Source of the DNA: Candidatus Rokubacteria bacterium 13_1_40CM_69_27
GTDB taxonomy: Bacteria; Methylomirabilota; Methylomirabilia; Rokubacteriales; CSP1-6
NCBI GenBank assembly: GCA_001917535.1
Contig: MNEF01000095.1
Location: forward strand, 1-30,873
DNA: 30,873 nucleotides
Reading direction: 5' to 3'
Shown here: one piece after another, positions 1 to 7,808 of the stretch
Layout: each line of letters begins with the position of its first letter
Numbering within the stretch: position 1 is the stretch's first letter
Notes under the pieces: generated by a model
The model's database searches: none
What the model was told of the DNA's origin: nothing
The model's input: the letters and a program-made list of their open reading frames with translations, nothing else
Translations under genes and position numbers: made by a program

Positions 1-222
1 GACTTCAAGGCAGTGCTGAACCCCAACTCGCTGGAGGTGCTGCGCGGCTGCAAGCTGGAGCTGTCACTGAAAGGCGCCGCGCCCGAGTCCCGCTTCCAGT
101 TCGAGCGCCAGGGCTATTTCTGCGCGGACTCGAAGGATTCCGCGCCCGGGCGGTTGGTCTTCAACCGGACGGTGGGGCTGCGAGATACGTGGGCGAAGAT
201 CGAGAGGGGAGGAACAAGTTAG
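1..222 (+). CDS. glnS: Glutaminyl-tRNA synthetase, C-terminal end (5' part lies outside the window)
   Basis: Frame-1 translation ends ...[36 protein letters not shown]. This matches the conserved C-terminal anticodon-binding tail of class-I GlnRS (FER.GYF..D.DS...LVFNRTV.L.D.W). Stop TAG at 220-222. Flanking GC is high. Confidence 0.7.
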
Positions 223-345
223 CCCCTCTCCATGCTCTGTCAGGAAGAAAGATCTTTGCTCACCATCCGTCGAAGGCGTGATCGCAGACACGTGAGGTGC
301 GGCAGGTGAGTATGCTAGGCACCAGCGGAGTGAGCAAGGTAGCGG

Positions 346-373
346 TTGACTAAACCGGAGCATTCGTCATACT
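346..373 (+). promoter_or_regulatory. Candidate sigma70-type promoter (TTGACT-N16-CATACT) about 10 nt upstream of the ATG at 383, implying a leaderless or very short-leader transcript
   Basis: TTGACT at 346-351 and CATACT at 368-373 with a 16-nt spacer. No Shine-Dalgarno lies between the -10 and ATG 383. The region sits in a lower-GC intergenic stretch. Confidence 0.3.
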
Positions 374-382
374 AGTCTCGAG

Positions 383-688
383 ATGAAGCGACGCCACCTC
401 CCAGCCTCCAGCGCTGGAGGCCAGCCAATCCTCTCGCAATCGATCCGTATCGGGAACGAGACATTCAGCGCCCATTTAGGCATCATCGGGCGGATCGAAA
501 CCGCAGGCTTCGGCATCATCGTCGACAGCAAAAAACGAGAATTTCCGTTCACGTTCGACAAGATTTTCCGCTATCGCGGCCAGACCGCCGCAAGCCTCGG
601 TTTCGCCGTCGGGCATGAAGTGATTTTTGCGGTGCAGGGAAGTAGCATCATCACCGTCTTGCCATCGTCGACGTCGTCAGAGCCCTAG
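383..688 (+). CDS. Small protein with a cold-shock-domain-like (CSD/OB-fold) core and a ~30-aa N-terminal extension; first gene of the low-GC cassette
   Basis: Residues ~33-95, 'GIIGRIETAGFGIIVDSKKREFPFTFDKIF..GQTAASLGFAVGHEVIFAVQGSSIITV', align with the CspA pattern G.VKWFN..KGFGFI...G..DVFVHFSAI...G...L.EGQ.V.F....G.KG..A..V. Stop TAG 686-688 lies 3 nt before the next start, indicating translational coupling. Confidence 0.5.
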   Translation: MKRRHLPASSAGGQPILSQSIRIGNETFSAHLGIIGRIETAGFGIIVDSKKREFPFTFDKIFRYRGQTAASLGFAVGHEVIFAVQGSSIITVLPSSTSSEP

Positions 689-691
689 TCC

Positions 692-1351
692 GTGGCATCG
701 GCGCCCCAGTTGACCCTCGACCCGAGGAGGGTCGAGGGGGTGCGGGGTGTATTCCATCCGAGACACACGCTTCCACCACGTGTTCGAGAGTTTGGATACG
801 TTCCGGATCTGAACCAGCTTCGCCCAGGCGATCTTGTTCTTTTTTCGGCAGTCAAACCCCGCCGTCGTTCGCGCGCCATTGTTCGCAGTCAACGGGACGC
901 GGGCCATCATGAGGCAGACGCGCGATGGCATCACGCGGCGGTCTATGTCGGCGACTCCGAAATCTGTGAAGCCGTCGTTTGGCGTGGAGTCCATCTTGCG
1001 TCTCTCTACGATTCTGTGGAAACGCACCTTCTGCGGTTTCGGCGGGATCCCCGACTAACGGACCACGACAGCTGGCGTGTGGCAGTCAACGCATTGCGGT
1101 TTCTTCGCCGACGCTACGGCCTGGCAGCGCTATTTCGGATATGGCAGCAGACCAGACTGGGATTCTGGCGGCCCGACATTCGTCACAAGAAGCTGCGGGC
1201 CCGGATCTGCTCGGAACTCTACGCTGATGCTTACACGCTGACAACAGGCCGGATGCTGATGAGAGGCACACTCAATATATTGACACCCGCAGAACTAAGT
1301 GTGACCGCAGCACTTGCGGACATCCAGGTTGATTGGCTCCAGATCGCCTAA
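692..1351 (+). CDS. Hypothetical protein; candidate circularly permuted NlpC/P60 papain-fold enzyme (LRAT / YiiX-YaeF-like: His motif before Cys motif)
   Basis: The order 'LRPGDLVLFS' ... 'WHHAAVYVGD' ... 'ICSELYADAY' matches the permuted NlpC/P60 families (GDLI.F ... H.GIY.G ... C-S/E-x-F/L-V). Candidate catalytic His80/81 and Cys173 (tgc 1208-1210). GTG start at 692; an alternative GTG near 740 is preceded by GGAGGG. GC is lower than the flanks. Confidence 0.45.
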   Translation: MASAPQLTLDPRRVEGVRGVFHPRHTLPPRVREFGYVPDLNQLRPGDLVLFSAVKPRRRSRAIVRSQRDAGHHEADARWHHAAVYVGDSEICEAVVWRGVHLASLYDSVETHLLRFRRDPRLTDHDSWRVAVNALRFLRRRYGLAALFRIWQQTRLGFWRPDIRHKKLRARICSELYADAYTLTTGRMLMRGTLNILTPAELSVTAALADIQVDWLQIA

Positions 1352-1383
1352 GTAAGGGTGAGCCAGATGAGGGGAGGCTCGAG

Positions 1384-2316
1384 ATGGAAAGCGCCACCGC
1401 AAGTCAGATCCTGGACGACCACGTCTTCTTAGTGGGACGTCCACCTCTAGACGAATACCTGGGCTTTGTCACGGCTCAGACTGCAGATGCTGACGCTGTG
1501 GACATTGGCGTTCTTGCGAGCGACTGGCGAGCTGCCAACGATCATGTTAGAGAACTCGAACGCGTTGAGCAAGGCTGTGCCGATGCGCCAAGCATTGGAC
1601 CGGTAGGGAAAAACCTGAGCGCGCTGGTCGAGCAAGTTCACAGTGATCCGTTATTTCAGCGCTCGTTCGGGATCGTACCGACCGATATTGGTGTGGTCGA
1701 ACTGGATAAGGTGGTTGTCTATCAAAAGTTCATCAATTTGGCGTACGTGAGACAAATTCAACAAAAGCTTGGCCCTAATCCAACGGAAGAGGCTGTTTTT
1801 CGCCTGTGCTTACCGTTTGACCATCCCCAGCCCACGGTCAACTTCGGGCGTATTGCCAACAACGCGTATATGTTCATGTCGCCATCGACGGATCTGCGCT
1901 TTCTTGAGCCGGTATTGCTGCAGTTCGATAGGATTATTGGGCACCGGCCGCAGGGGCCAGTCGCGGGTGTCATTGCTCTACTGGTAGGATTCGGTTCGAA
2001 CTTTCTGAATCTTATTCACGTGGATAATCGCTTAGTGATGAACAATGGTAGCCATCGTGCGTATGCTCTTCGCGACATGGGCATTACACATGTTCCGTGC
2101 GCAATTCAGCGAGTATCGAGACGCGAGGAACTCCGTGTTGTCGGGAGCAGTGACTTGCAGAATAATCCCGACAACTACCTCAAGAATGCGCGGCCGCCAT
2201 TGTTGCGTGACTACTTTGATCCCGCACTTCAAAAGATCTTCAAAGTTCCTCGGAGGGTCCGCCAGGTAAAGATTGCCTTTGGTGTCGAGCAGCTCGATGT
2301 GCCGGCCAGCAGTTGA
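1384..2316 (+). CDS. Hypothetical protein with a C-terminal ParB/Srx-fold (ParB-like nuclease) domain; N-terminal ~200 aa unassigned
   Basis: ATG 1384 is preceded by GGGGAGG (1371-1377). The track's TTG 1333 is less likely. The motif 'NRLVMNNGSHRAYALRDMGITHVPCAI' fits the ParB/sulfiredoxin signature hydrophobic-x-DG-x-HR-x-x-A-x4-G-x3-[IV]P (His at 2053-2055). This is the lowest-GC gene in the window, about 40-48%. Confidence 0.5.
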   Translation: MESATASQILDDHVFLVGRPPLDEYLGFVTAQTADADAVDIGVLASDWRAANDHVRELERVEQGCADAPSIGPVGKNLSALVEQVHSDPLFQRSFGIVPTDIGVVELDKVVVYQKFINLAYVRQIQQKLGPNPTEEAVFRLCLPFDHPQPTVNFGRIANNAYMFMSPSTDLRFLEPVLLQFDRIIGHRPQGPVAGVIALLVGFGSNFLNLIHVDNRLVMNNGSHRAYALRDMGITHVPCAIQRVSRREELRVVGSSDLQNNPDNYLKNARPPLLRDYFDPALQKIFKVPRRVRQVKIAFGVEQLDVPASS

Positions 2317-2319
2317 CGT

Positions 2320-2440
2320 AATGTGTGAGCACCATCGCGTTCAGTCGCAAGGCCGGACGACCTTGAGAAGAAGTTACGACGCCGAGTTCAAAGTGGTCTT
2401 CGCCAGCGTCGACGCCGCCCGTGCGATCGGTTTTCGTCCG
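2320..2440 (+). pseudogene. Remnant of the 3' end of an ORF6N/ORF6C-family gene, a decayed paralog of the intact gene at 3712-4272
   Basis: Nucleotides 2350-2435 ('cttgagaagaagttacgacgccgagttcaaagtggtcttcg...gcgatcggttttcg') are about 85% identical to 4125-4235 of the intact gene ('ctcgagaaaaagtacgacgcccagttcaaagttgtcttcg...gcgatcggctttcg'). The encoded ..YDAEFKVVF...RAIGFRPP corresponds to ..YDAQFKVVF...RAIGFRAR, with a frameshift and an internal deletion. There is no start codon and no N-terminal domain. Confidence 0.45.
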
Positions 2441-2549
2441 CCGTCCCAATCGCGGGGGCGGGGATCAGCCGGGCGAAGGGGTAGAATCTTGCCGGCCCAC
2501 GGTGGGGCTGCGAGTAGCCGTTGCCCGGCCCCCAAGGGTAAGAGGCACC

Positions 2550-3620
2550 ATGAAGATCCATAACATCCAGGCCCGCCCCGTCGTCGCCCCGCTCGATCCG
2601 CCCGTGCGCACCGCGTCGGGGCACGTGACCCAGGCGCCGCTGCTGCTCATCGACCTCACGACCGACGAAGGCGTGGCCGGGCGCTCCTACCTCTTCGGCT
2701 ACCACGCGTTCACGCTGGCACCGTTGCGCGAGCTGGTGCTGGCGCTCGCCGAGATCATCAAGGGCGACCAGGTCGCGCCCATCGAGCTCGACAAGAAGAT
2801 GCGGGCGCGCATGACGCTGTTCGGCACGCGCGGGCTGCAGGGCCTGGCCATCGCGGGGATCGACATGGCGGCCTGGGACGCGCTCGCCGTCTGCGCCGGC
2901 GTCCCGCTCGCAGAGTTGCTAGGGGGCCGTCCTCGCCCCATCCCCGCCTACAACAGCCTGGGGATGATCCCGCCCGGCGAGGCCGCCGACGCGGCGGCCA
3001 AGACGGCGGCCGCGGGCTTCAAGGCGCTGAAGGTGAAGATCGGCTGGCCGACGCTCGCCGAAGATCTCGCCGTGGTGCGCGCGGCGCGCAAGCACCTCGG
3101 CGACGGCGCGCTCATGGTCGACTTCAACCAGTCGCTGGCGATTCCGGAGGCGATCCGCCGCGGCCGCGTGCTCGACGGCGAGGGGGTGAGCTGGATCGAG
3201 GAGCCCGTGCGCGCCGACGACTATCGCGGTGCCGCCGAGATCGCCGCGCAGGTGGCCACGCCCATCCAGATCGGCGAGAACTTCAACGGCGTGTACGAGA
3301 TGGAGCTGGCGCTCTCGCTCAAGGCCTGCGACCTCGTCATGCCCGATCCGCAGCAGATCGGCGGCGTGACCGGCTGGCTGCGGGCGGCGGCGCTGGCGCA
3401 GACGGCGGGCGTGCCGTGCTCGAGCCACATCTTCATCGAGGTGAGCGCTCATCTGTTAACGGTCACGCCGACCTGCCACTACATCGAGTACCTCGACGTG
3501 GCTGCGCCAGTCCTTGCTGAACCTCTCCGCCCGGTGGACGGCATGATCCAGGCCCCCGCGCGCCCGGGCATCGGGCTTCAGTGGAACGAGGAGACGGTCA
3601 AGCGCTACCGCGTGGGTTGA
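2550..3620 (+). CDS. Enolase-superfamily enzyme, mandelate racemase / muconate lactonizing enzyme family
   Basis: ATG 2550 follows the RBS AAGAGG. The product carries an MR/MLE N-terminal capping domain and a barrel domain with metal-ligand spacing: KVKIG, the D..Q (LMVDFNQS), EEP and D..Q/E motifs. It is 356 aa. Confidence 0.85.
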   Translation: MKIHNIQARPVVAPLDPPVRTASGHVTQAPLLLIDLTTDEGVAGRSYLFGYHAFTLAPLRELVLALAEIIKGDQVAPIELDKKMRARMTLFGTRGLQGLAIAGIDMAAWDALAVCAGVPLAELLGGRPRPIPAYNSLGMIPPGEAADAAAKTAAAGFKALKVKIGWPTLAEDLAVVRAARKHLGDGALMVDFNQSLAIPEAIRRGRVLDGEGVSWIEEPVRADDYRGAAEIAAQVATPIQIGENFNGVYEMELALSLKACDLVMPDPQQIGGVTGWLRAAALAQTAGVPCSSHIFIEVSAHLLTVTPTCHYIEYLDVAAPVLAEPLRPVDGMIQAPARPGIGLQWNEETVKRYRVG

Positions 3621-3622
3621 CG

Positions 3623-3649
3623 TTTAAGGTCGCAAACTGCGACCTTAAA
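3623..3649. repeat. Perfect palindrome TTTAAGGTCGCA-AAC-TGCGACCTTAAA (12-bp arms) 2 nt after the enolase stop
   Basis: Read directly from the sequence. It shares the core AGGTCGCA-N3-TGCGACCT with the palindrome at 4270-4292. No T-tract follows. Confidence 0.6.
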
Positions 3650-3711
3650 CACGGGTGTATCGAAAGCTGGCCATTCCTTCGGGCTGAGCGTCCCAGCTAC
3701 GATGGCGCTCG

Positions 3712-4272
3712 ATGGCGAAGCAGAGCGCCATTGTTCCAGCGGACCGGATCGAGCGGGCGATCGTCTTCATCCGTGGCCATAAGGTCATGCTGGATTTCGA
3801 TCTCGCAGCACTGTACGCAGTGCCGACCAGAGTGCTTGTGCAGGCGGTCAAGCGCAATGTGGCTCGATTTCCCTCCGATTTCATGTTCCGGCTGACTGCC
3901 GAGGAGGCAGAACGTTTGAGATCACAAATTGTGATCTCAAAGATCGGCCGCGGCGGACGCCGCTATGCACCCTACGCGTTTACCGAGCAGGGCGTCGCGA
4001 TGCTGTCCAGCGTCCTCAGAAGCCACCGAGCCATTCAAGTCAACGTGGCAATAATGCGGACGTTCGTACGGCTTCGGGCGATGCTTGCGTCACACGATGA
4101 CCTCGCCCGCAAGCTGGACGCGCTCGAGAAAAAGTACGACGCCCAGTTCAAAGTTGTCTTCGACGCGATCCGACATCTCATGGCTCCGCCAACTGCCGGC
4201 CGCCGCGCGATCGGCTTTCGCGCGCGCGCCGGCGGCGAGAACTTCAGTCGCCTGCGACCTCGTCGAATTTGA
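3712..4272 (+). CDS. ORF6N/ORF6C-domain protein (KilA-N-related putative DNA-binding regulator or anti-repressor typical of phage and mobile elements)
   Basis: The N-terminus '[76 protein letters not shown]' is the ORF6N signature. The C-terminal '[17 protein letters not shown]' is the ORF6C signature. Confidence 0.8.
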
Positions 4273-4292
4273 GGTCGCAATTTGCGACCTCA
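4270..4292. repeat. Palindrome TGAGGTCGCA-ATT-TGCGACCTCA overlapping the stop codon of the ORF6N gene
   Basis: Ten-bp perfect arms with the same AGGTCGCA/TGCGACCT core as 3623-3649. Confidence 0.6.
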
Positions 4293-4324
4293 CGTTGGAA
4301 GCGCGCCTCAGTCGCGTGGCGGCG

Positions 4325-7151: not shown

Positions 7152-7808
7152 TCAGGGCGGCGTTGAGGCGCGCTCCCTCACGACGACCAGCGTGCCTGCC
7201 GCCTGGTCATGCCATCCCCGGCGTTCGGGGTGGATCATCACCCAGGCGGCCATGAGTCCGAGCTCGCCTGCGTAGAGGACCCAGGGCAGGAGCTCGAGCC
7301 ACCAGCGAGCCCTGCGGCCGGCCTCCTCCCACTGGCGATCGGCCAGCGCCGCCTCGACCGGGACCGTGAGCTGACCAGCCGGGATCTCCAGGCTCGGTTT
7401 CCGCGCCGCGTGGCGCGCTTCCCAGGATGTCGCGGCGACGACGGACACGAGCAGGGGCAGGGCCAGCGGAACCAGGAATCCCATCAGATACCGGGTCAGC
7501 GCCCGGCTGATGGTCGGCGCCATTCCATCGCGCCCCACGACGGCGAGCCCTACCAGCCGCTGCCCCCATGTTCCGCCGCGCGTGACTCCGCCGACCAGGT
7601 AGGCGGCCGTGACCACCAGAACGGCGGCGACGAACACGCCCACCATCCCCAGTCCCCAGCCTGCCCAGTCCCAGCGACTGCCCAGCGCGGCGGCCGCGAA
7701 CATCGCCGCCGGCATCCAGACGATGGCCGTCAGTGCGAGGAGCCCGCCGAGGATCAGGAGATCCAGCAGGAACGAAAGCACCCGCCGGAACAGGTTGGCG
7801 TGGATCAT
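7152..7808 (-). CDS. RDD-family integral membrane protein
   Basis: Multiple predicted transmembrane segments plus the RDD hallmarks (R..LD.LI near the N-terminus, GQRLVGL, and a C-terminal RRGWHDQAAGTLVV). Likely co-transcribed with the upstream SDR gene. Confidence 0.65.
   Translation of the reverse strand: MIHANLFRRVLSFLLDLLILGGLLALTAIVWMPAAMFAAAALGSRWDWAGWGLGMVGVFVAAVLVVTAAYLVGGVTRGGTWGQRLVGLAVVGRDGMAPTISRALTRYLMGFLVPLALPLLVSVVAATSWEARHAARKPSLEIPAGQLTVPVEAALADRQWEEAGRRARWWLELLPWVLYAGELGLMAAWVMIHPERRGWHDQAAGTLVVVRERASTPP

What the first reader, a model, noticed from the sequence alone, without database searches (positions are those of the whole stretch)
1384..2316. ParB/Srx-fold domain at the C-terminus of a 310-aa protein of unknown N-terminal function
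The segment VMNNGSHRAYALRDMGITHVPCAI reproduces the core motif of the ParB N-terminal/sulfiredoxin fold (…DG.HR..A…G…[IV]P), which binds NTPs/DNA and often has nuclease or NTPase activity. The ~200-aa N-terminal region has no motif I recognise. The gene is the most AT-rich in the window, so it is clearly foreign.
Basis: partly seen in the sequence, partly recalled or inferred. Interest (0 to 1): 0.6.

Follow-up and report, generated by a model that had tools for sequence, protein, structure and literature searches.

The report
Unannotated ParB/sulfiredoxin-fold protein in inserted islet
The gene encodes a member of a large, unnamed protein family built around a nucleotide-binding ParB/sulfiredoxin fold; it arrived in this soil bacterium on a 2.3-kb insertion, and its sister subfamily is wired to a peptide-processing and export machine, which hints at a new peptide-modifying enzyme.

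Summary

The gene is foreign. GC is 0.53 against 0.68 for the window. It lies in a ~2.3-kb block (209-2541) inserted between glnS and a mandelate-racemase-like gene. That block is absent from two related Rokubacteria contigs and is bracketed by a perfect 16-bp direct repeat.

There is no HTH, ParA motif or Srx cysteine, so it is neither a partition ParB nor a sulfiredoxin. Nuclease or DNA-binding activity is unsupported.

The family splits into two subfamilies. One is always translationally coupled to a RiPP-type HExxH protease-HlyD fusion, next to Gly/Ser/Lys/His-rich precursor peptides. The other is an orphan subfamily, and the window copy belongs to it. Here it sits with a small OB-like protein and a permuted papain-like hydrolase.

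The best guess is an NTP-dependent enzyme or switch acting on peptides or proteins. The chemistry is inferred, not shown.

The parts
1384..2316 (+). CDS of the 310-aa ParB/Srx-fold family protein (orphan subfamily)
   Evidence: ORF list. 1,689 full-length homologues. 1,554 50%-identity clusters at E<=1e-3. Model pLDDT 93.6.
1370..1377 (+). Shine-Dalgarno-like AGGGGAGG, 6 nt before the ATG at 1384
   Evidence: Read directly from the sequence. Homologue alignments start at this Met.
1840..2163 (+). ParB/Srx (ParB-CTPase) fold core, about residues 153-260
2047..2058 (+). P motif GxxR = G222-S223-H224-R225 (His-Arg at 2053-2058)
   Evidence: G, H and R are invariant in 85/85 homologues; S is S/T/H/Y. 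It aligns with GCHR of human Srx. GxxR is the P motif of the fold (PMC12704722).
1879..1899 (+). Box-I-like motif S166-P-S168-T-D170-L-R172
   Evidence: S168, D170 and R172 are invariant in 85/85. Its equivalence to ParB Box I or the Srx 'IRP' motif is inferred from position, not tested.
692..1351 (+). Upstream co-oriented gene: permuted papain-like (NlpC/P60, C92/YaeF/YycO-like) hydrolase, 219 aa (gene callers start it at 740, 203 aa)
   Evidence: NCBIfam YaeF E 2.6e-4. Homologues carry PF05708 and the names NlpC/YycO. Conserved His (WHHAAxYxG) then Cys (ICSxLYxDA). It lies next to orphan family members in 3 independent arrangements.
383..688 (+). First gene of the block: small (101 aa) basic protein, cold-shock/OB-like by eye only
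   Evidence: It is always paired with the 219-aa gene, including in Gloeobacter violaceus and Methylomicrobium lacus. No Pfam hit.
346..373 (+). Promoter-like site (TTGACT-16-CATACT) ahead of the three-gene block
   Evidence: Consensus scan only. Intergenic gaps of 3 and 32 nt suggest one operon.
209..2541 (.). Low-GC inserted block between glnS and the MR/MLE gene
   Evidence: Homology to related contigs L172 and L173 stops at 208 and resumes at 2542-2556. In those contigs glnS and MR/MLE are adjacent, 57 or 379 nt apart. GC is 0.53-0.59 against 0.70 in the flanks.
169..184 (+). Left copy of the perfect 16-bp direct repeat ACGGTGGGGCTGCGAG (inside the glnS 3' end)
   Evidence: 2 matches in the window, 0.01 expected from shuffles.
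2499..2514 (+). Right copy of the 16-bp direct repeat, 36 nt before the MR/MLE start codon

Best explanation
The gene encodes a cytoplasmic member of a large, unannotated family in which a ParB/Srx (ParB-CTPase) fold at residues ~153-260 is wrapped by family-specific N- and C-terminal segments. SHOWN: the fold; an intact, invariant phosphate-binding P motif (G222-x-H224-R225) plus about 20 other invariant polar residues (S168, D170, R172, N206, R216, N221, E249, R270, D276, Y277); the absence of the ParB HTH and dimerisation parts and of the Srx cysteine; and horizontal arrival on a 2.3-kb insertion. INFERRED: like the HTH-less members of the fold (Srx, SerK, SbnI), it binds an NTP with H224/R225 at the triphosphate and works as an enzyme or NTP-gated switch on a non-DNA substrate, most likely a peptide or protein. 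The reason is that the sister subfamily is always encoded directly downstream of a fusion of a RiPP-type HExxH intramembrane protease with a HlyD adaptor. The two genes often overlap, and Gly/Ser/Lys/His-rich precursor peptides lie upstream. My preferred chemistry is phosphoryl (or nucleotidyl) transfer to Ser/Thr hydroxyls. The window copy belongs to the orphan subfamily and lacks that partner. Here it is co-transcribed with a small OB-like protein and a permuted papain-like hydrolase. Its substrate is therefore unknown and may be encoded elsewhere.
For: Fold. Motif register against Srx. Invariance across more than 10 phyla. The GxxR P motif and ATP-using HTH-less members (SerK, SbnI, Srx) are described in PMC12704722. 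Not a clamp ParB: no [LFI]G[KR]G[LFI] motif, no Pfam HTH or ParBc hit, and no parA among neighbours. Peptide link: 82 of 163 family loci have the ~820-aa partner directly upstream on the same strand, often overlapping by 3-81 nt. The partner matches daptide_HExxH at E 1e-62 to 1e-71, YydH/LiaK, and HlyD, and matches PqqD weakly. HExxH is present in 57/60 partners, and leader-motif precursors in 30/51 loci with enough upstream sequence. Subfamily split: nearest-neighbour labels agree in 137/138 cases (tree). Insertion.
Against: No biochemical data exist for any member. NTP binding is inferred from fold and motif only. The 2025 survey shows that nucleotide specificity, and even binding, cannot be predicted from sequence (PMC12704722, section 9 heading). 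Sequence profiles do not connect the family to ParB/Srx. The peptide link comes from the sister subfamily. The window's orphan subfamily has no precursor-like ORF with the leader motif (0/56) and no recurrent neighbour apart from a facultative two-gene cassette. In the partnered loci the protein could equally be a non-catalytic partner of the protease/exporter. Ser223, the position of the Srx catalytic Cys, is not invariant.
Confidence: 0.55

Rival explanations
1. It is an NTP-gated, non-catalytic switch or chaperone subunit. In the partnered subfamily it would regulate or energise the HExxH-protease/HlyD export fusion, which has no ABC/RND/MFS energy component nearby. The orphan copy would act in trans on a partner encoded elsewhere, or on the adjacent papain-like hydrolase.
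For: Tight translational coupling with the fusion: overlaps of 3-81 nt, always the same strand and order. No recurrent ABC transporter in those loci. ParB-fold proteins are classic NTP switches (PMC12704722). In both contexts the neighbour is a protease or hydrolase.
Against: About 26 invariant, mostly polar or charged positions look more like an active site than a binding switch. Orphans are common (56 of 138 classifiable) and have variable neighbours. No dimerisation or clamp elements are evident.
Confidence: 0.2
2. It is a ParB-like nuclease or DNA-directed NTPase, for example a stand-alone defence or mobile-element gene acting on DNA.
Against: No HTH, HNH or other DNA-binding or nuclease partner domain. 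pI 6.1, family median 6.4. Defence families are not enriched among 82 orphan neighbours, at most 3 hits. The family is almost absent from viral contigs, 2 loci. The sister subfamily sits in peptide, not DNA, operons.
Confidence: 0.12
3. It is a sulfiredoxin-type repair enzyme or a free-serine kinase (SerK/SbnI orthologue) of primary metabolism.
Against: The Srx catalytic Cys is Ser here, and S/T/H/Y across the family. There is no peroxiredoxin, cysteine-biosynthesis or siderophore context. An extra ~200 residues are absent from Srx. Distribution is patchy and horizontally transferred.
Confidence: 0.05

Closest known systems
Sulfiredoxin (Srx; PDB 1yzs, 6ky4, 3cyi)
   Different: The catalytic Cys is replaced by Ser/Thr/His/Tyr. 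The protein is three times longer, with family-specific N- and C-terminal segments. It is bacterial, horizontally mobile, and has no peroxiredoxin context.
Free serine kinases SerK (PDB 5x0b) and SbnI (PDB 5ujd)
   Different: No detectable sequence similarity. Different extra domains. Here the context is peptide-processing or orphan, not cysteine or siderophore biosynthesis.
ParB-CTPase family proper (ParB/Noc/KorB/PadC; Pfam PF02195)
   Different: Fails PF02195 at E<=1, so it lies outside the 2025 PF02195-based survey of the fold. It has GSHR instead of GERR, and lacks an HTH, a C-terminal dimerisation domain, the ParA-binding motif and a parA neighbour.
Daptide / YydH-LiaK type RiPP maturation systems (context of the sister subfamily only)
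   Same: The partner of the sister subfamily matches the daptide HExxH intramembrane metalloprotease (E 1e-62 to 1e-71) and the YydH/LiaK epipeptide protease. It is preceded by short genes with a conserved leader and hypervariable core.
   Different: Scores are below the NCBIfam equivalog cut-off (210-240 against 300 bits). The protease is fused to a HlyD adaptor. No daptide or epipeptide tailoring enzymes or ABC transporter are present. The universal extra gene is the ParB/Srx-fold protein. None of this is present in the window.

Membership tests
ParB/Srx (ParB-CTPase) fold superfamily | Three-dimensional similarity of the core to solved members | tested here: met
ParB/Srx (ParB-CTPase) fold superfamily | GxxR phosphate-binding P motif (Box II) at the start of the helix after the central strand | tested here: met
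   G222-S-H-R225. G, H and R are invariant in 85/85. It is in register with GCHR of Srx. The motif definition comes from PMC12704722.
ParB/Srx (ParB-CTPase) fold superfamily | Recognition by sequence profiles of the superfamily (PF02195 ParBc, PF08857, DUF262) | tested here: not met
   No Pfam hit at E<=1. A profile against PDB sequences gives no ParB/Srx hit. hhalign against Srx gives E 0.14.
ParB/Srx (ParB-CTPase) fold superfamily | Binding of a nucleoside triphosphate | not testable with these tools
   Needs DRaCALA/ITC with H224A/R225A controls.
Canonical partition ParB / CTP-dependent DNA clamp (TIGR00180) | HTH DNA-binding domain and C-terminal dimerisation domain after the N-terminal fold | tested here: not met
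   No Pfam or NCBIfam hit of any kind. Only ~50 residues, with two beta strands, follow the fold.
Canonical partition ParB / CTP-dependent DNA clamp (TIGR00180) | N-terminal ParA-binding motif [LFI]G[KR]G[LFI] and an adjacent parA | tested here: not met
   The regex is absent. Neighbours in the window and in 24 orphan loci include no ParA family.
Sulfiredoxin | Catalytic cysteine in F-G-G-C-H-R | tested here: not met
   The position is Ser223 here. Across the family it is Ser 76, Thr 6, His 2, Tyr 1 of 85.
Free serine kinase (SerK/SbnI) | Orthology and metabolic context (cysteine or staphyloferrin B biosynthesis genes) | tested here: not met
Partnered (RiPP-like) subfamily of this same family | An ~820-aa HExxH protease-HlyD fusion directly upstream on the same strand, with leader-motif precursor gene(s) | tested here: not met
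   tblastn with five partner proteins finds nothing in the 30.9-kb window. The leader regex is absent from the window and from 56/56 orphan loci. The window protein clusters with orphans.
Anti-phage defence systems (PADLOC) | Match to a known or candidate defence protein model, or enriched defence neighbourhood | tested here: not met
   No PADLOC hit for the protein or its two operon partners. Orphan neighbours give at most 3/82 for any model.

The most novel reading that the evidence does not exclude
The family is a new class of NTP-dependent peptide-modifying enzymes built on the ParB/Srx fold, for example a peptidyl-serine kinase or nucleotidyl-transferase. With its HExxH-protease/HlyD partner and Gly/Ser/Lys/His-rich precursors, it would define an undescribed RiPP class widespread in soil Acidobacteria, Verrucomicrobia, Gemmatimonadetes and Rokubacteria. 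The window's orphan copy would be a free-standing, horizontally mobile version that modifies a protein or peptide in trans, possibly together with the adjacent papain-like hydrolase.
Probability: 0.2. Interest if true: 0.8.

Novelty: new variant of a known kind. Interest (0 to 1): 0.55.

Why it matters
The ParB/Srx fold has recently been recognised as a versatile NTP module, but surveys start from PF02195 and cannot see this family. It has over 1,500 50%-identity clusters across more than 10 phyla, so it is a sizeable blind spot. Half of the family is hard-wired to a peptide leader-protease/export fusion and Ser-rich precursor peptides. This makes a concrete, testable prediction: ParB/Srx-fold enzymes act on ribosomal peptides. 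No paper in the searchable library mentions such a role. For this window specifically, it documents a clean small insertion, with empty sites and a direct repeat, that carries the gene.

Tried and rejected
(1) Pfam, NCBIfam, PADLOC and PHROGs scans of the protein gave nothing meaningful.

(2) phmmer and a family profile against PDB sequences gave no ParB/Srx hit.

(4) Foldseek against AFDB50 was unavailable.

(6) Rosetta-stone fusions: ten longer family members were scanned. Only one carries Pfam domains (GT25 + methyltransferase), which is not informative.

(7) Phage origin: only 2 loci in 2.9 M viral contigs.

(8) Defence-island hypothesis for orphans: no enrichment.

(9) No tRNA gene in the window to serve as an integration site.

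(10) Comparison with the strain variant L001 for synonymous against non-synonymous changes: the islet is identical, so it is uninformative.

(11) An exact-protein look-up of the window's MR/MLE protein found nothing. This was solved through homologues.

(12) Literature searches for RiPP + ParB-like, and for RiPP + M50 + HlyD + PqqD, found nothing relevant.

Full report
THE GENE. Window 1384-2316 (+) is an intact 310-codon ORF. It has an ATG start, and AGGGGAGG lies six nt upstream. The alternative TTG start at 1333 is not used by homologues, whose alignments begin at this Met. The His-Arg codons are at 2053-2058, exactly as stated.

SEQUENCE-LEVEL ANNOTATION FAILS. Pfam (E<=1), NCBIfam, PADLOC and PHROGs give nothing relevant. 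The same holds for phmmer and a family profile against all PDB sequences. Yet the protein has 1,689 full-length homologues in the 90%-clustered database, all unnamed and without Pfam domains. It also has 1,554 50%-identity clusters at E<=1e-3, of which 368 reach E<=1e-30.

A 44-sequence alignment has 53% mean column identity and 26 invariant columns. In 85 loci from more than 10 phyla the following are invariant: S168, D170, R172, G202, N206, R216, N221, G222, H224, R225, G233, P238, R270, P271, D276 and Y277. These loci are all MAGs, mostly from soil. They include Acidobacteria, Verrucomicrobia, Gemmatimonadetes, Rokubacteria, Nitrospirae, Eisenbacteria, Deinococcales and Bacteroidia, plus one Thermoplasmata bin.

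- Osa and Spo0J

Foldseek finds nothing significant (best E 0.055), but about 35 top hits are nearly all from the same superfamily. hhalign of the family profile against human Srx aligns residues 207-240 with Srx 83-116. This puts GSHR on GCHR, at an insignificant E of 0.14.

G222-S-H-R225 is thus the GxxR 'P motif' (Box II) that defines the nucleotide pocket of this fold (PMC12704722). From secondary structure and motifs I place the core at about residues 153-260. S166-P-S-x-D-x-R172 sits where Box I would be; that placement is an inference.

WHAT IT IS NOT.
- It is not a partition or clamp ParB. It has no HTH or dimerisation domain, no [LFI]G[KR]G[LFI] ParA-binding motif and no parA neighbour.
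- It is not a sulfiredoxin. The catalytic Cys position is Ser here, and S/T/H/Y across the family.
- It is not a SerK/SbnI orthologue. There is no sequence match and no metabolic context.
- The nuclease/DNA idea has no positive support. There is no nuclease or DNA-binding domain. The pI is 6.1, with a family median of 6.4. Defence families are not enriched around orphan members. The family is nearly absent from viral contigs.

GENOMIC CONTEXT OF THE FAMILY. I collected 171 loci and clustered neighbouring ORFs.

In 82 of 163 usable loci, the gene directly upstream on the same strand encodes an ~820-aa fusion. It often overlaps the family gene by 3-81 nt. The N-terminal half of the fusion matches the daptide HExxH intramembrane metalloprotease (NF041824, E 1e-62 to 1e-71, below the equivalog cut-off) and the YydH/LiaK epipeptide protease. 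It also matches PqqD (RRE-like) weakly. The C-terminal half is a HlyD-type periplasmic adaptor. HExxH is present in 57 of 60 partners.

Upstream of the fusion, 30 of 51 loci with enough sequence carry one or two short ORFs. These have a conserved leader, M[KR]HLNLELE[KR]LEQRIAPG, and a hypervariable low-complexity core: Gly 27%, Ser 25%, Lys 12%, His 8%. An example core is SGSKSHSSKSKSSKSKSSKSHSSKS. Accessory genes include a FemAB-like transferase (18 loci), an unannotated ~220-aa protein (11 loci) and a TolC-like OEP (5 loci).

This has the anatomy of a RiPP cluster, and the ParB/Srx-fold protein is the only universal candidate tailoring or regulatory component. I found no paper describing it. 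The 2025 PNAS survey of the fold used PF02195 as its query, and this family does not match PF02195.

TWO SUBFAMILIES. Partner status is phylogenetically clean. In an NJ tree all partnered loci form one clade and the loci lacking the partner fall outside it; the one exception is L087, counted as partnered on its downstream genes although its upstream flank is cut. Nearest-neighbour labels agree in 137 of 138 cases. The window protein is an orphan, grouping with L005 and L008.

Orphans keep all invariant residues and differ from partnered members at only five consensus positions. The chemistry is therefore probably shared, but the substrate need not be.

Orphan neighbourhoods are heterogeneous, with no Pfam family in more than 3 of 82 neighbours. 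None of 56 orphan loci has the leader motif. Two orphan loci (L081, L086) do have Gly/Ser/Lys-rich ORFs nearby.

The only recurrent orphan neighbour is the pair found in this window. It occurs in three independent arrangements:
- window: 101 > 219 > target
- L015/L130/L132: the pair is divergent from the target
- L105: target > 101 > 219

The 219-aa protein is a permuted papain-like (NlpC/P60, C92/YaeF/YycO-like) hydrolase, with conserved His then Cys. The 101-aa protein is small and basic, and looks OB/cold-shock-like by eye only. The pair also exists on its own. In Gloeobacter violaceus it is Gll2269 with an upstream small gene. In Methylomicrobium lacus it lies beside an integrase and restriction genes. 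The association is therefore facultative.

THE GENE IS AN INSERTION. The GC of the gene is 0.529 (GC3 0.56), against 0.677 for the window and GC3 0.85-0.95 for typical neighbours. The low-GC block spans about 223-2400 and includes the two upstream ORFs.

The flanking genes are the 3' end of glnS (13-222) and a mandelate-racemase/muconate-lactonising-type gene (2550-3620). Its best named homologues are from Candidatus Rokubacteria/Methylomirabilota.

In two related contigs, whose MR/MLE proteins are 94% and 92% identical, glnS and MR/MLE are adjacent, 379 and 57 nt apart. Nucleotide homology to the window stops at 208 and resumes at 2542-2556.

A perfect 16-bp direct repeat, ACGGTGGGGCTGCGAG, lies at 169-184 inside glnS and at 2499-2514. 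It brackets the block, and 0.01 matches are expected by chance. No integrase or transposase is inside the block.

Orphan family genes in general sit a median 3.7 GC points below their flanks. The window shows the most extreme deficit, -0.156. A promoter-like site at 346-373 and gaps of 3 and 32 nt suggest that the three genes form one operon.

MECHANISM, WITH STEPS MARKED. Shown:
- the fold
- an intact and invariant P motif
- many invariant polar residues
- the lack of DNA-clamp and Srx features
- horizontal insertion
- obligate coupling of the sister subfamily to a peptide protease/exporter and to Ser-rich precursors

Inferred:
- the protein binds an NTP through H224/R225
- it acts on a peptide or protein rather than DNA
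- the most parsimonious chemistry is phosphoryl or nucleotidyl transfer to hydroxyls, by analogy with the HTH-less ATP-using members Srx, SerK and SbnI

The main rival is a non-catalytic NTP switch that controls the protease/exporter or, here, the papain-like hydrolase. A nuclease role is less likely.

VERDICT. 'Foreign' is right and now rests on empty-site evidence. 'Nuclease/DNA' is unsupported. The family is a new, unannotated variant within the ParB/Srx superfamily. Its link to RiPP-like operons is the most interesting lead, but that link is not present in this window.

Noticed in passing
L010:2971-6933, L035:621-4497, L059:5003-8924, L066, L070, L072 and about 75 more loci (not in the window): An apparently undescribed RiPP-like gene cluster. 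It has one or two precursor genes with the leader M[KR]HLNLELE[KR]LEQRIAPG and hypervariable Gly/Ser/Lys/His-rich cores. Next comes an ~820-aa fusion (weak PqqD-like match, HExxH intramembrane protease, HlyD adaptor), then the ParB/Srx-fold gene. Some loci add a FemAB-like transferase, a ~220-aa unannotated protein or a TolC-like OEP. One core weakly hits the His-Xaa-Ser repeat model HxsA4.
   Followed up: partly
window 383-1351; L015:443-1409; L105:1247-2204; L176:4744-5657 (Gloeobacter violaceus); L177:4767-5660 (Methylomicrobium lacus): A two-gene cassette made of a small basic OB/cold-shock-like protein and a permuted papain-like C92/YycO-like hydrolase. It occurs with or without the ParB/Srx gene. 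In M. lacus it lies next to a phage integrase and restriction/RloB/AAA_21 genes; in Gloeobacter it lies next to SNF2/SWIM genes. It may be a mobile toxin-antitoxin-like or defence module.
   Followed up: partly
window 169-184 and 2499-2514: A perfect 16-bp direct repeat brackets the 2.3-kb low-GC block. The left copy is native glnS coding sequence, which looks like an att-type duplication, yet there is no integrase in the block. The last residues of GlnRS differ from relatives (IERGGTS* against IEKAG*).
   Followed up: partly
window 3600-4300: A second low-GC patch (0.58-0.59) carries an ORF6N-domain gene (3712-4272) that matches the PADLOC candidate system PDC-S05 (E 2e-55). The strain variant L001 is 99% identical up to window position 3616 and then diverges, so this patch is also strain-variable.
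   Followed up: partly
window 2550-3620 and whole window: The host is most likely a soil Candidatus Rokubacteria (Methylomirabilota) bacterium. The MR/MLE protein is 87% identical to proteins named from Rokubacteria MAGs. The rest of the window holds ordinary metabolic genes: molybdopterin oxidoreductase, branched-chain amino-acid permease, metallo-beta-lactamase fold, NMT1.
   Followed up: partly
L081:~7400-7600 (-) and L086:9211-9675 (-): Two orphan-subfamily loci have nearby ORFs with Gly/Ser/Lys/Asn-rich low-complexity regions. The L081 ORF has a double-glycine type leader (MKLGNLNLQELSQNQMLEVSGG) and is divergent from the family gene. This hints that some orphans also sit next to Gly/Ser-rich peptides.
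   Followed up: no
P0237, P0146, P0231 (family members from the representative search): Rare longer architectures. P0237 has a glycosyltransferase-25 and a methyltransferase domain N-terminal to the family module. P0146 has an N-terminal zinc-ribbon-like CxxC...CxxC. P0231 is a divergent member with NGYHR instead of NGSHR. It was not checked whether these are real fusions or gene-calling artefacts.
   Followed up: no
L005:187-1910 and L092: The window protein's closest orphan relatives with long flanks (63% identity) lie directly downstream of a DUF5131 (phage Gp37/Gp68-like) gene and a protein with a weak GMT-wHTH hit. This is another mobile-element-like context.
   Followed up: no
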